The position numbers are program-made. From the NCBI GenBank assembly GCA_050575255.1, contig JBNZDD010013590.1:1737534-1801533 (forward strand): a stretch of 64,000 nt of DNA, read 5' to 3'. Every line of letters starts with the position of its first letter. Position 1 is the stretch's first letter. Below, one piece after another: positions 36,001-39,000 of this stretch. The DNA comes from Harriotta raleighana (lineage: Eukaryota).

Positions 36001-39000
36001 TCTTCCTAGGGGGAGGTAAGCAAGGTTTAACTAGAGTTAAATTATTTCCAAGATGACATGCTTGCTAACAAAATGCTAGAATTAAGTCAACCCGCTGTGG
36101 CAGTTTTGAAAGGCTGGCTCCTGAGACATAGTATTCCAGAGCACTGCTAATAGCAGCACAACCAGCCTGGTTCATTGGAAGGACCTGGAAAGGCAGACCA
36201 GTCACTGGGGGCAGGGACTCTTCACACCAAGTTCCTGTTAAACCTGCAAGTAAATATCCTAACGGGTAAAGTGGTCCAAACTGGACAAACAGCAGGAAAA
36301 CTTGCCAGACAATGTTTTGCAGTTTTGGTTGCTTAAAATCCAGCAGTACCTCAATGTACATTCTACGGTCCACAAGTCCAGACTGTTGCCAACCTTCGTC
36401 TAATACACTCTGAAGTTAGTTAAACATGATGTGTCCCTCTAGGGAGAGAGGGCACATTCTATTCTAAACACAATTTCCATGTGTAAACAAAATTCAGCAG
36501 GTCAGACAGCATCCATGGAGAAAGGAAAGTGAGTCAATGTTTCGGGTCTTCGTCAGAACTGCAACACTCCCCAGTTCTGACAAAGAGTTGTGGACCCGAA
36601 ACATTGACTCACTTTCCTTTCTCCATGGATGCTGCCTGACTTGCTGATTTTCCCCAGCAACTTCAATTTCCATGTGTATATGGCTTGCATGGAACTTTCA
36701 CGTTGGTTTGGATGCTCTTAAGCATGGTATTTGGTTTCTGCATGTGTAGGACACTGAAAAAGAGCAGCATTGCATTGAAACATCAGCCTGAAATATACGT
36801 GTTTAAAGTCCCAACATGTCTGAGAGGCGAGATTGTTACCAACTGTGTCAGACTGACACCTAATTAATTAAGCAAAGATGCTTTGCTCTAACTAACCTTT
36901 ATTTGTTACTTCTAAATCAATTAAAGCTGAATGTTGGTATCTATATATGAACATTGTTGTAAACCAAACACAGCAAAGACATGTGCTATATGAAAGGACA
37001 ACTAACACAGCAACTATCAACTTTTAATTGATCTGTAAGGAACAGATAAAGATTAGTTAGAGTAAAGCTTCTTTGCTTAATTAATCTCCAGTAAATACCT
37101 TTTGACTTCTGAAATGCTAATTTATAAAAGTCCCTGCCCTGTGTAAAGATTATCAGTGATGCACAACATGGAGCAAAATGATGCATTAAGTGTTTTGGAG
37201 ACTGAGACTAATTCATTGGGATCTAATCTGCTTTTGATCGAGTCAACTTATTTATCAAGAGGAGAATATTTTGCTATTTAATGTTTTTTCTTCTCTTGAC
37301 AATTGTTCTTCGCTTTATACATACATTTTCCCTCTATTCTCTATACAATATATTTGTTTCCACCTTTCCCCTTTTCTTTAAGCTGCTTAATTTATATTTC
37401 CTCCTCTAATGGAATAAAGGCACCAGAATATTGGCAGAACTCACTGGAAGTCCCTGGATGGACTTGTAGCTTTATAATAATAATTATTGTCTAATCTGAA
37501 GAGTAGCCTTTTCCTCCATCTCCCCCTTTACCCTCTTTTCCCCCTTCCTCCCCCGGCCCCACTTCTGTGACTGTTTGTGGGACACTGCTGTGCGCAATTT
37601 GGTTGCCGCAGTTCACCCACAAATATACAGTTATTTTTTCCTGCTCTCCTTCCCCCTACCCCAACCCTTTCCCTTGCCACCTTTTCCCCCTTTCTCCCCT
37701 AACCCCACTTCCATGACTGTTTGTGGGACACTGCTGTGCGGAATTTGGCTGCTGCGTTTTGCTCACAAATATACAGTCAATTTTTTCCTACTTTCCTTCC
37801 TCCTCCTTGACTGTACAGCGCCTTGGGACATCCTCCCGACATGAAAGGTGTTATATAAATGTAATTTTGATTGATTGATAGTTCAACAACATTCTGAGCT
37901 AATGTTTTGCTAATGTAGGCATTGAATTTGCAACCTTGTGGACCAGAGGTGAGAGTGCTAAGTTAAATTGACATGACCAGTGTTTTCAGTTGGTTCCTAT
38001 TTCAGGCTGGTTGGAGACTATGGAGCAGGCTTTTCGTGTGGCACTCAATTGATGTGGCCTCATGCTTTTCACTTCAATGATATCATGCCTGGTACCAATG
38101 GGCTGTGAGCAGAATTCCCTCACCACAGGTCACCTGAATCAGAAAATACATCTTTCAGAGAAAAGATACAGGTTCAGTGGGTTGGATAGTGAAACTGCAG
38201 TATATACATCATCCAGATGCAACATTAACTACTGTGAGCTTGGAGAAGAAGGCTAAGGAAGCTATTAACAAGACTGCTAAAGATGGACAGCTCCGTGCTA
38301 TGGGAATAACTGTAGTCAATTTATCACTACAGAATTTAAATTATTCTACTCAGCCCAATACTTCTCAGTCTGGTAACTATCAGAATGTGATTTTGATGCC
38401 TCCTTTGCTGACAATACACATAACCTAGTAATGGGTCCTGACAGATCAACCTTGACAGGTCTGTTGAACTGAAGGAAGGCTTCTGTACTGGTGAAGGAGG
38501 TCACCTGGATAGGGTTTGGCTTCCTTACACTGCAATAGAGTTGGTTATTTCCTAGACATCTCGAATGCAATGCTGTAAATAAGTAAATTAAAGGATTAAT
38601 CACCAAGCCTTTGTCACAATACAGAATTGCTGCACCTGTATAACTCCAGAAATTGCAACTGCTGGAGGTTAGCACTTTGTGCTATTGATCCCAATTGATC
38701 CCATTATACCAAAGTTCCACTTTATCTGTTCAGGGGGATGGGTGTTAAAGATCCCTTTTCATATGGGAAGATCACTATATAAATGCAATTTGTTGTGGTT
38801 GAAGCTAGAATACTATAATGGGTAGGTGTGAGCTTCCAGAATCCCTCTATTCCTTTTGCTCGTCTTTCTCGGGAGATTAGAAGCTTCAGTTGTAATTTAG
38901 AGACTTGACCCTACACTAAATTTAGGAGCATTTATGAGCGATTTTTGTAATTTGAAAACAGCAGAACAATACCAATACAAGGATTTTCTTTCTCTTTTCC

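What the first reader, a model, noticed from the sequence alone, without database searches (positions are those of the whole stretch)
36471..36678. Fold-back hammerhead mini-retroelement with a perfect 15-bp TSD
Seen: a 178-bp insertion made only of two inverted copies of the Penelope terminal repeat, flanked by the exact duplication caatttccatgtgta. Each arm carries a degenerate CUGAnGA...GAAA hammerhead motif. There is no coding sequence. Known: Penelope-like elements carry minimal type I hammerheads in their terminal repeats and often acquire an inverted 5' repeat on insertion. Inference: this is either an extreme truncation-plus-inversion product or a member of a non-autonomous, retrozyme-like family mobilised by Penelope RT. 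Its transcript would be a long dsRNA hairpin.
Basis: partly seen in the sequence, partly recalled or inferred. Interest (0 to 1): 0.7.

Follow-up and report, generated by a model that had tools for sequence, protein, structure and literature searches.

The report
Head-to-head pair of Penelope stubs
A 178-base hairpin-shaped insert between two copies of a 15-base duplication is the debris of one Penelope-like retroelement insertion: two very short tail fragments joined head to head, each with a dead ribozyme remnant, a kind of structure already described for these elements.

Summary
An exact 15-nt direct repeat (36471-36485 and 36664-36678) encloses 178 nt made of two inverted copies of one repeat.

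The repeat is the 3' end of a canonical Penelope-like element (PLE). A 92% identical copy elsewhere in the window continues upstream into an ORF. [quoted passage not shown]

The arms lie 5' ends together and 3' ends outward. Both lack the optional "tail". Published work describes this as the most common inverted PLE arrangement.

Both hammerhead remnants fail the published minimal-hammerhead criteria. The right arm has lost G8. The left arm has lost helix II. Both have lost the helix III palindrome.

A retrozyme reading does not fit, because retrozymes are direct tandem repeats. A second fold-back in the same window (4511-4722) has a different junction, different ends and its own duplication. 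That points to one-off events, not a propagating family, but only two cases were available and no host genome could be searched.

A long RNA hairpin is predicted (-118 and -124 kcal/mol).

One open point: five of seven arms end within 25 nt of the hammerhead box.

The parts
36471..36485 (.). Left copy of the 15-bp target-site duplication (CAATTTCCATGTGTA)
   Evidence: D2, 100% identity; 0 of 2000 shuffles reach the score
36486..36561 (-). Left arm. A 76-nt PLE 3'-terminal fragment in antisense orientation. It is 5'-truncated 5 nt upstream of the hammerhead box. Its outer end lies about 12 nt short of the tail-less end class. Bases 36486-36488 match no other copy.
   Evidence: nhmmer E = 8e-27 on the - strand
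36532..36560 (-). Hammerhead remnant of the left arm. The CTGACGA box and GAAA are kept. An 8-nt deletion removes the helix II 5' strand and loop. Positions 15.2/16.2 are C/A, so they are not self-complementary.
36562..36562 (.). Single base at the inversion junction that fits neither arm (filler, non-templated, or mutated)
   Evidence: compared with copy 55715-56505
36563..36663 (+). Right arm. A 101-nt PLE 3'-terminal fragment in sense orientation. It starts 14 nt upstream of the hammerhead box and contains the hairpin loop. It ends at the tail-less end class (...CAGCAACTT).
   Evidence: 91.8% over 97 nt to 55860-55764; 92.2% over 102 nt
36573..36609 (+). Hammerhead remnant of the right arm. 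The box reads CTGACAA, so position 8 is A not G. Helix II pairs at 4 of 5 positions. Positions 15.2/16.2 are C/A.
36664..36678 (.). Right copy of the 15-bp target-site duplication

Best explanation
The element is the product of one retrotransposition event by a canonical (RT + C-terminal GIY-YIG) Penelope-like element. It is not a functional or self-propagating unit.

Proposed sequence of events:
1. The element's nuclease nicked both strands of the target 15 bp apart.
2. Each 3'-OH primed reverse transcription at the internal, tail-less initiation region of a PLE RNA.
3. Both cDNAs stopped within about 10 nt of each other, just upstream of the minimal hammerhead.
4. The two ends were joined by a template jump, with 0-1 nt of overlap.

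The result is duplication - antisense stub - sense stub - duplication.

The ribozyme remnants are dead. If the locus is transcribed from outside, its only likely activity is to form a hairpin of about 75 bp that could feed the small-RNA pathway.

Shown here: the anatomy, the PLE identity of the arms, the duplication, and the decay of the hammerheads.
Inferred: priming from both nicks, the template jump, and any dsRNA role.

I put about 0.85 on the statement that this is a one-off PLE insertion by-product. The confidence given below (0.5) is for the twin-priming route specifically.
For: PLE identity.
- The right arm is 92% identical over 102 nt to copy 55715-56505. That copy is bounded by its own 11-bp duplication.
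- About 220 nt upstream of that copy's hammerhead box lies ORF 56080-56514.
- A phmmer search with that ORF found 384 relatives at E <= 1e-3.
- I sent 7 hits to Pfam: 5 of the longer ones and 2 high-ranking shorter ones. Five of them (503-927 aa) show RVT_1 followed by a C-terminal GIY-YIG domain. That is the defining PLE architecture (PMC8557442 abstract).

Arrangement.
- Head-to-head is "the most frequently observed" inverted form (PMC3846280 passages).
- Dual minimal hammerheads 100-700 bp apart on opposite strands were already seen in Schistosoma (PMC4209133).

Mechanism.
- The purified Anolis PLE protein cleaves and extends both strands of its target. It initiates internally at two sites that delimit the tail (PMC11167929 main text).
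- In the window, three copies end with the tail. Three end without it, within about 12 nt of one another: the right arm, the left arm of fold-back 2, and copy 5180.
- Fold-back 2 carries the tail on one arm only.

Hint of two templates.
- At 2 of the 4 substitutions between the arms, the right arm shares its base with copy 55715-56505 and the left arm carries the majority base (columns 41 and 100).

One-off character.
- The two fold-backs in the window differ in junction, outer ends and duplication.
Against: - The left arm's outer end lies about 12 nt inside the tail-less end class and carries 3 unmatched bases. It therefore does not sit at a recognised initiation site.
- Independent truncation of two cDNAs does not by itself predict inner ends only 9 nt apart here, or about 15 nt apart in fold-back 2.
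- No RT-coding part of this PLE family lies in the window. The link to RT rests on relatives of the nuclease-proximal ORF.
- Pfam, a word-indexed protein search, the ESM Atlas and the PDB gave nothing for that ORF.
- Most Pfam scores of the relatives are below the curated cut-offs.
- One of the two 'two-template' differences is at a CpG, where parallel decay is likely.
- No empty site was available to prove the insertion (the flanks are unique in the window).
Confidence: 0.5

Rival explanations
1. Same single PLE event, but made by self-priming (snap-back). One cDNA, primed from the bottom-strand nick, copied the right arm. At about 14 nt upstream of the hammerhead box it turned back on itself and copied its own first 76 nt. 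The whole hairpin strand was then ligated into the target.
For: - The loop is contiguous with the right arm and matches the family sequence.
- In both fold-backs, the arm that lacks the loop is also shorter at its outer end: 12 nt shorter here and about 48 nt shorter in fold-back 2. That is expected if the second arm is copied from the first.
- The near-symmetry of the inner ends follows automatically.
- The arms are each other's closest relatives, 53 of 55 in the core.
Against: - There is no base pairing at the turn here (0-1 nt), and only 3 nt in fold-back 2.
- The left arm of fold-back 2 ends exactly at the tail-less end class (...CTTCTG). Under snap-back that would be a coincidence.
- The same paper notes that self-priming on a sense template should give tail-to-tail arrangements, not head-to-head.
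- At two differences between the arms, the left arm has the majority state.
Confidence: 0.3
2. The fold-back is one copy of a non-autonomous family that PLE RT mobilises as a unit. This is the reader's second alternative, a retrozyme-like or SINE-like hairpin element.
For: - In vitro, PLE RT needs only a short region downstream of the hammerhead as template (PMC11167929).
- pLTRs alone can mobilise foreign sequence in trans (PMC3846280).
- Non-LTR retrozymes are argued to derive from PLE terminal repeats (preprint).
- A read-through transcript containing the sense arm could in principle be copied back through the whole hairpin.
Against: - nhmmer finds only 7 arms in 64 kb, and no second copy of this junction.
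- The other fold-back has a different junction, different ends, and arms only 37 of 50 identical to each other.
- Hammerheads in opposite polarity cannot excise a unit-length RNA.
- Both remnants fail the descriptor.
- A hairpin of -118 kcal/mol would bury any protein-binding site.
Confidence: 0.07
3. Two independent insertions. A solo stub inserted first, and a second stub later landed in inverse orientation exactly at its 5' end.
For: - PLEs tend to insert into or beside existing copies. The in-vitro target was the element's own ORF-pLTR junction.
- Copy 5180 starts within about 20-100 nt of fold-back 2.
Against: - A single perfect 15-bp duplication flanks the whole unit, and no second duplication flanks either arm.
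- The arms are more similar to each other (53 of 55) than to any other copy.
Confidence: 0.05
4. It is not a retroelement product at all. It could be a miniature inverted-repeat DNA transposon, a DNA-level palindrome from break repair, or an assembly artefact.
For: - It has a hairpin shape and flanking direct repeats.
- A genuine MITE-like palindrome lies 185 bp downstream, at 36863-37085.
Against: - The inverted repeat does not reach the termini: 12 nt at the right end and 3-4 nt at the left end are unpaired.
- The arms are collinear with a PLE 3' end, including its 3' UTR.
- A 15-bp duplication is longer than those of cut-and-paste transposons (recalled, not tested).
- Artefactual palindromes are perfect. 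These arms differ by 4 substitutions and an 8-nt deletion.
Confidence: 0.03

Closest known systems
Inverted (head-to-head) 5'-truncated copies / inverted pLTRs of endonuclease-containing Penelope-like elements. Sources: Evgen'ev & Arkhipova 2005 as cited in PMC8557442; Arkhipova et al. 2013, PMC3846280; Craig et al. 2021, PMC8557442.
   Same: - 5' ends together and 3' ends outward.
- One target-site duplication around the whole unit.
- Optional tail.
- Minimal hammerhead in each repeat.
- Little or no overlap at the junction.
   Different: - Here there is nothing else: no ORF and no direct pLTR.
- Both copies are cut down to 76 and 101 nt.
- The duplication is 15 bp, against the 8-10 bp reported for Adineta vaga.
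Dual minimal hammerheads on opposite strands, 100-700 bp apart, in Schistosoma mansoni (Cervera & de la Pena 2014, PMC4209133)
   Same: Two PLE-type minimal hammerhead motifs close together in opposite polarity, ascribed there to truncated PLEs.
   Different: - Here the box-to-box distance is about 27 nt, so the pair is tighter than the range quoted.
- Both motifs here are decayed.
- That paper gives no duplication or junction analysis in the parts I read.
Non-LTR retrozymes. Sources: Cervera & de la Pena 2020, PMC7229834; Li, Clavereau & Pollet 2026 preprint.
   Same: - Short, non-coding, hammerhead-bearing, and derived from PLE terminal repeats.
- Unit size in the 150-450 nt range.
   Different: - Retrozymes are direct tandem repeats with active type I hammerheads of one polarity, which excise circular RNAs.
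- This element is an inverted pair with dead remnants.
Twin-priming inversions of LINE-1
   Same: Both target nicks prime reverse transcription, giving an inverted 5' segment inside one duplication.
   Different: - In L1 the two segments come from adjacent parts of one RNA and do not overlap.
- Here both arms copy the same segment, which yields a palindrome.
Rearranged Penelope copies with long inverted repeats that yield siRNAs in transformed Drosophila melanogaster (Evgen'ev 2013, PMC3681739 passages)
   Same: Inverted PLE repeats are predicted to give dsRNA.
   Different: - There the small RNAs were measured and the repeats are long.
- Here expression is unknown and the stem is about 75 bp.

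Membership tests
Penelope-like element insertion (canonical EN+ PLE), head-to-head inverted form | The repeat is the terminal region of an element encoding RT plus a C-terminal GIY-YIG nuclease | tested here: met
   - The right arm is 92% identical to copy 55715-56505.
- That copy's ORF 56080-56514 has 384 relatives at E <= 1e-3.
- 5 of the 7 relatives scanned show RVT_1 followed by GIY-YIG (most scores are below Pfam cut-offs).
- The RT part of this family is not in the window.
Penelope-like element insertion (canonical EN+ PLE), head-to-head inverted form | Inverted 5'-truncated copy adjacent at the 5' end, with 3' ends outward | tested here: met
   Alignment A1: left arm antisense at 36486-36561, right arm sense at 36563-36663, and both outer ends are 3' ends.
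Penelope-like element insertion (canonical EN+ PLE), head-to-head inverted form | One target-site duplication flanking the whole unit | tested here: met
   15 of 15 identical; 0 of 2000 shuffles reach the score. Other copies of the family: 13 of 15, 12 matches plus one indel, and 11 of 11. One copy has none.
Penelope-like element insertion (canonical EN+ PLE), head-to-head inverted form | Two classes of 3' end separated by an optional tail of tens of bp | tested here: met
   
- 3 of 7 arms end with a tail of about 48 nt.
- 3 end without it, within about 12 nt of one another.
- The left arm here ends about 12 nt earlier still.
- A tail-only fragment lies at 29172-29216.
Functional PLE minimal hammerhead (descriptor of Cervera & de la Pena 2014) | Catalytic boxes CUGANGA and GAAA | tested here: not met
   
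- The right-arm box is CTGACAA, with A at position 8 and C at position 3, so it is not the U3-A8 covariant.
- The left arm keeps CTGACGA.
- GAAA is present in both.
- A G8C change abolishes cleavage in the Anolis PLE.
Functional PLE minimal hammerhead (descriptor of Cervera & de la Pena 2014) | Helix II with a G10.1-C11.1 pair and an unpaired base between positions 9 and 10.1 | tested here: not met
   
- Right arm: 4 of 5 pairs, with the 10.1-11.1 pair and the bulged A kept.
- Left arm: an 8-nt deletion removes the helix.
Functional PLE minimal hammerhead (descriptor of Cervera & de la Pena 2014) | Self-complementary positions 15.2-16.2, needed for dimer helix III | tested here: not met
   Both arms read ACAT. 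The least decayed copy reads ACGT.
Functional PLE minimal hammerhead (descriptor of Cervera & de la Pena 2014) | Self-cleavage | not testable with these tools
   This needs an in-vitro transcription assay. Rfam gave no hammerhead hit. That is uninformative, because the copy with both boxes intact (4596-4640) is also missed.
Non-LTR retrozyme | Head-to-tail tandem repeats with hammerheads of one polarity | tested here: not met
   The arms are inverted.
Non-LTR retrozyme | Expressed as unit-length circular RNA | not testable with these tools
   No RNA data were available.
Miniature inverted-repeat (cut-and-paste) transposon | Terminal inverted repeats reaching both termini, and many copies with the same ends | tested here: not met
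   12 nt are unpaired at the right end and 3-4 nt at the left end. There is no other copy with these ends in the window. The genome-wide count was not testable.

The most novel reading that the evidence does not exclude
The arms may not be randomly truncated stubs. They may be copies of a discrete minimal module of about 80-135 nt, running from just upstream of the hammerhead to the internal RT start site, that the PLE machinery mobilises on its own.

Evidence for a clustered 5' end:
- Five of the seven arms in the window have their 5' ends between -14 and +10 of the first base of the hammerhead box. These represent 3 of 5 independent insertions: both fold-backs and the 131-nt solo copy at 50142-50272.
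- The other two copies are at least 470 nt and 791 nt long.

This would imply one of two things:
- A defined template 5' end, such as a pLTR start site like the internal promoter of Drosophila Penelope.
- A hard stop at the hammerhead or hammerhead dimer, where two RNAs held together would also explain why two cDNAs meet there and form fold-backs.

By my own arithmetic, uniform truncation over 791 nt would place 3 of 5 events in a given 25-nt window with a chance of about 3e-4. That figure is weak, because the window was chosen after seeing the data and because retroelement truncation is strongly skewed towards short copies.
Probability: 0.25. Interest if true: 0.5.

Novelty: new member of a known kind. 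Interest (0 to 1): 0.22.

Why it matters
As it stands this is a textbook-grade example. It is compact and cleanly bounded, and it shows the head-to-head products that Penelope-like elements leave behind. It is useful for repeat annotation, because such hairpins can be mistaken for MITEs or microRNA precursors; Rfam gave only weak microRNA-like hits.

It also agrees in vivo with the in-vitro finding that a PLE protein extends both target strands from internal start sites.

It would matter more if the clustering of 5' ends at the hammerhead proved general. That would give the conserved but catalytically feeble PLE hammerhead a structural role in defining or pairing templates. It would also link solo stubs, fold-backs and retrozymes to one minimal module.

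Tried and rejected
- **Rfam.** No hammerhead hit at gathering thresholds on the whole window or at E <= 10 on 36300-36850. The control on 4450-5350 shows that Rfam also misses the copy with intact boxes, so this negative says nothing.
- **ORF 56080-56514.** Nothing from Pfam at E <= 10, from the word-indexed protein search with longer candidates (131 candidates, none scored), from the ESM Atlas (best score 0.78 for an unrelated family, below the lead threshold) or from the PDB. Only the exhaustive phmmer search gave relatives.
- **Paralogous empty site.** The flanks 35901-36485 and 36679-37300 have no other copy in the window.
- **Older LINE as host.** I tested whether the fold-back sits inside an older LINE. 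The CR1-like RT fragment at 35370-35864 (-) has relatives at 43928-44251 and 52077-52232. No protein-level similarity reaches the insertion site.
- **Duplication as decayed PLE tail.** I suspected this would indicate homing into an old copy. Local alignment scores against four tails were within the shuffle range (133-476 of 500 shuffles as good). Rejected.
- **Flank match to 29222-29238.** A 16-nt flank match lies beside a tail-only fragment (4 of 2000 shuffles; E = 0.14 for the 13-mer in the window). It was found post hoc, the relative orientation differs, and it is left unexplained.
- **29232-30161.** Translation showed no credible ORF.
- **Literature on a shark PLE-derived SINE.** The search (listing only) gave nothing usable.
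- **Not done.**
  - Genome contigs holds only bacteria and archaea and was not used.
  - As a result, the genome-wide junction search stayed undone.
  - I did not open the supplements of PMC4209133 (hammerhead alignments) or of the preprint (closed). They may list this hammerhead family.
- **Source organism.** I did not determine it. PLEs and their minimal hammerheads are reported absent from mammals, so I do not take the window for human.
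Full report
**1. The observation**

CAATTTCCATGTGTA occurs at 36471-36485 and again at 36664-36678 (D2). I aligned the 45-nt windows around the two boundaries, and none of 2000 shuffles reached the observed score.

One search listed 48 merged loci of exact direct repeats of 15 nt or more at 60-600 nt spacing in the window. By my reading, most belong to longer duplications or arrays; this pair is a lone 15-mer.

The enclosed 178 nt form an imperfect palindrome. 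One pair of arms is 59 nt long and 95% complementary. An inner pair is 15 nt long and 93% complementary. Either strand folds as RNA into a single hairpin: -118.4 kcal/mol (z = -18.4) for the + strand and -124.4 kcal/mol (z = -17.0) for the - strand. None of 200 shuffles folded as well.

The arms differ by four substitutions and one 8-nt deletion. That argues against an assembly artefact, which would be a perfect palindrome. The nearest N run (34335-35284) lies 1.2 kb away and was left alone.

**2. What the arms are**

BLAST with the right arm, and an nhmmer profile built from the alignment, find seven arms in the window and no more:
- the two arms of this element;
- 55715-56505 on the - strand;
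- 50142-50272;
- about 4740/4800-5296;
- a second inverted pair at 4511-4722.

Copy 55715-56505 is 92% identical to the right arm over 102 nt, including 12 nt upstream of the hammerhead. It is bounded by an exact 11-bp duplication (19 of 2000 shuffles as good).

About 220 nt upstream of its hammerhead box lies ORF 56080-56514. Four searches with this ORF gave nothing: Pfam, a word-indexed search, the ESM Atlas and the PDB. An exhaustive phmmer search against 1.84 billion representatives gave 384 hits at E <= 1e-3 and 10 hits at E <= 1e-10.

I sent 7 hits to Pfam: 5 of the longer ones and 2 high-ranking shorter ones. Five of them (503-927 aa) show RVT_1 followed by a C-terminal GIY-YIG domain. 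The query aligns just before and into that nuclease domain. Most of these Pfam scores lie below the curated cut-offs. Only the RVT_1 score of P0023 (37.7 bits) passes.

RT followed by a C-terminal GIY-YIG nuclease is the defining architecture of canonical Penelope-like elements (PMC8557442, abstract and passages). PLEs and their minimal hammerheads are reported absent from mammals (PMC4209133; preprint), so I do not take the window for human.

**3. Anatomy against the family (alignment A1)**

- The left arm, 36486-36561, is antisense.
- Base 36562 fits neither arm.
- The right arm, 36563-36663, is sense and contains the hairpin loop.
- The arrangement is head to head: 5' ends at the centre and 3' ends outward.
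- The inner ends lie 5 nt (left arm) and 14 nt (right arm) upstream of the first base of the hammerhead box.

The family has two classes of 3' end:
- Three copies carry a terminal extension of about 48 nt: 55715-56505, 50142-50272 and the right arm of 4511-4722.
- Three end without it, within about 12 nt of one another: the right arm here (...CAGCAACTT), the left arm of the second fold-back (...CTTCTG), and the copy ending near 5296.

The left arm here stops about 12 nt earlier still and carries 3 unmatched bases. A tail-only fragment at 29172-29216 (-) begins exactly where the tail-less copies end.

[quoted passage not shown] It also matches the two internal RT start sites that delimit the tail in the Anolis element (PMC11167929 main text).

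**4. The hammerheads**

From the parts of Cervera & de la Pena 2014 that I read, the PLE minimal hammerhead has these features:
- the CUGANGA and GAAA boxes;
- an unpaired base between positions 9 and 10.1;
- a G10.1-C11.1 pair at the base of a long helix II;
- a short helix I;
- self-complementary positions 15.2-16.2, so that two copies form helix III as a dimer.

The family fits this plan. The columns read: AGTT, box, A, GGGTC, three loop bases, GACCC, GAA, ACGT, T, GACT.

I scored each arm column by column.
- The right arm reads CTGACAA. It has A at position 8 with C at position 3, so it is not the U3-A8 covariant noted in that paper. Helix II pairs at 4 of 5 positions. Helix III reads ACAT instead of ACGT.
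- The left arm keeps CTGACGA. It has lost 8 nt, comprising the helix II 5' strand and loop. Its helix III also reads ACAT.

A change at G8 (G8C) abolishes cleavage in the Anolis PLE hammerhead. No copy in the window passes every criterion.

Rfam reports no hammerhead at all. It also misses the copy with both boxes intact, so that negative carries no weight.

On any transcript the hammerhead strands would be locked in the 75-bp stem.

**5. How it arose**

Head-to-head inverted copies inside one duplication are a described hallmark of PLE insertions. Dual minimal hammerheads 100-700 bp apart on opposite strands were noted in 2014.

The purified Anolis PLE protein cleaves and extends both strands of its target. 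That gives a direct route, and it is the mechanism I favour:
1. Two nicks are made 15 bp apart.
2. Two cDNAs are each started at the internal tail-less region.
3. Both cDNAs are aborted just before the hammerhead.
4. They are joined end to end.

Points in favour:
- The second fold-back has a tail on one arm only, with its other arm ending exactly at the tail-less class.
- At two of the four substitutions between the arms here, the right arm shares its base with copy 55715-56505 and the left arm carries the majority base. This hints at two templates. One of those sites is a CpG, so the hint is weak.

The main rival is self-priming of a single cDNA, as Arkhipova et al. proposed for PLE palindromic junctions. 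It explains three things better:
- the inner ends are only 9 nt apart;
- the loop is contiguous with one arm;
- in both fold-backs, the arm without the loop is also the shorter one at its outer end.

There is no base pairing at the turn here. With two cases I cannot decide between these routes.

**6. Is it a family?**

Within the window the evidence points to one-off events.

The second fold-back (4511-4722) has its own duplication, AATGTATTGTTTTAG against AATGTGTTATTTTAG, 13 of 15 identical, with 1 of 2000 shuffles as good. It differs from this element as follows:
- Its junction lies elsewhere: the inner ends are at about -6 and +9, with a 3-nt overlap.
- It has different outer ends.
- Its arms are only 37 of 50 identical to each other.
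- Those arms are 42 and 46 of 50-55 identical to the arms here.

A retrozyme reading also fails on structure, because retrozymes are direct tandem repeats.

**7. What it may do**

Probably nothing. If read through by a host transcript, it would form a near-perfect hairpin. In Drosophila melanogaster transformed with Penelope, siRNAs map to exactly such inverted regions (PMC3681739 passages). This is inference; no expression data were available.

**8. What remains odd**

Five of the seven arms have their 5' ends within a 25-nt stretch around the hammerhead box. These represent three of five independent insertions and include the 131-nt solo copy 50142-50272, whose duplication is TAGCCAAAACTCT against TAGCCAAACTCT (10 of 2000 shuffles as good). 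The other two copies are at least 470 nt and 791 nt long.

This may only reflect the usual excess of very short copies. It could also mark a defined template 5' end or a stop at the hammerhead. For comparison:
- Drosophila Penelope has an internal promoter, with its start site 46 nt upstream of a 75-bp intron. That intron's 3' end abuts helix I.
- The Anolis protein needs only sequence downstream of about +20 as template.

I give this reading a probability of 0.25. It is testable by the genome-wide plot described under next steps.

**9. Surroundings**

I scanned 115 stop-to-stop ORFs of 75 aa or more across the window. Pfam found only three weak RVT_1 fragments: 35370-35864 (-), 40232-40495 (+) and 60150-60530 (-).
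- The fragment nearest the fold-back looks CR1-like by eye.
- Similarity to its relatives in the window does not extend to the insertion site.
- No host exon was recognised.

**10. Verdict**

The structure is a further example of a known kind, and its interest is low to modest.

Noticed in passing
window 4511-4722 (duplications at 4496-4510 and 4723-4737): A second PLE fold-back. The antisense arm, about 4511-4592, ends at the tail-less class. The sense arm, about 4590-4722, carries the tail. The junction lies inside the hammerhead with a 3-nt overlap. The arms are only 37 of 50 identical in the core. The duplication is 13 of 15 identical (1 of 2000 shuffles as good).
   Followed up: yes
window 50142-50272 (repeats at 50129-50141 and 50273-50284): A solo 131-nt hammerhead-plus-tail copy whose 5' end falls exactly at the hammerhead box. 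It is flanked by a 12/13-nt duplication with one indel (10 of 2000 shuffles as good). Together with the four fold-back arms, this puts 5 of 7 arm 5' ends within 25 nt of the box.
   Followed up: partly
window 55715-56505 (-), duplications at 55704-55714 and 56506-56516: A 791-nt 5'-truncated PLE copy with an exact 11-bp duplication. It is the closest relative of the right arm. Its ORF 56080-56514 looks by eye like the zinc-finger/GIY-YIG region. The ORF's relatives carry RVT_1 plus GIY-YIG.
   Followed up: yes
window about 4740/4800-5296 (+): Another 5'-truncated PLE copy. It has the least decayed helix III (ACGT) but a CTAATGA box. It starts within about 20-100 nt of the second fold-back. No duplication was found (710 of 2000 shuffles as good). 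The adjacency may reflect PLE insertion beside existing copies.
   Followed up: partly
window 29172-29216 (-) and 29222-29238: A tail-only PLE fragment that begins exactly where tail-less copies end. The 16 nt beside it resemble the left flank of the fold-back (36443-36459; 4 of 2000 shuffles as good). The match was found post hoc, the relative orientation differs, and it is unexplained.
   Followed up: partly
window 36863-37085: A 223-nt AT-rich palindrome 185 bp downstream of the fold-back. It is 71% self-complementary overall, and its terminal 38 nt are 92% complementary and start with ATTAATTAAGC. It looks like a miniature inverted-repeat DNA transposon and is unrelated to the PLE.
   Followed up: no
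window, e.g. 19501-19819, 50976-51288, 58200-58516, 7066-7395, 25957-26282: A SINE family of about 320 nt with a tRNA-like head. There are at least 15 copies or fragments by BLAST. Three heads pass the Rfam tRNA threshold. Two copies lie in inverted orientation at 57665-57981 and 58183-58516.
   Followed up: no
window 35370-35864 (-), 43928-44251, 52077-52232, 40232-40495 (+), 60150-60530 (-): Decayed LINE-type reverse-transcriptase fragments (RVT_1 below cut-off). The first looks CR1-like by eye and abuts the N run 34335-35284.
   Followed up: partly
window 18155-18477, 31354-31579, 33899-34022, 42895-43510, 47819-48610: Local direct duplications and tandem arrays, revealed by the exact 15-mer scan. 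Several sit next to N runs.
   Followed up: no
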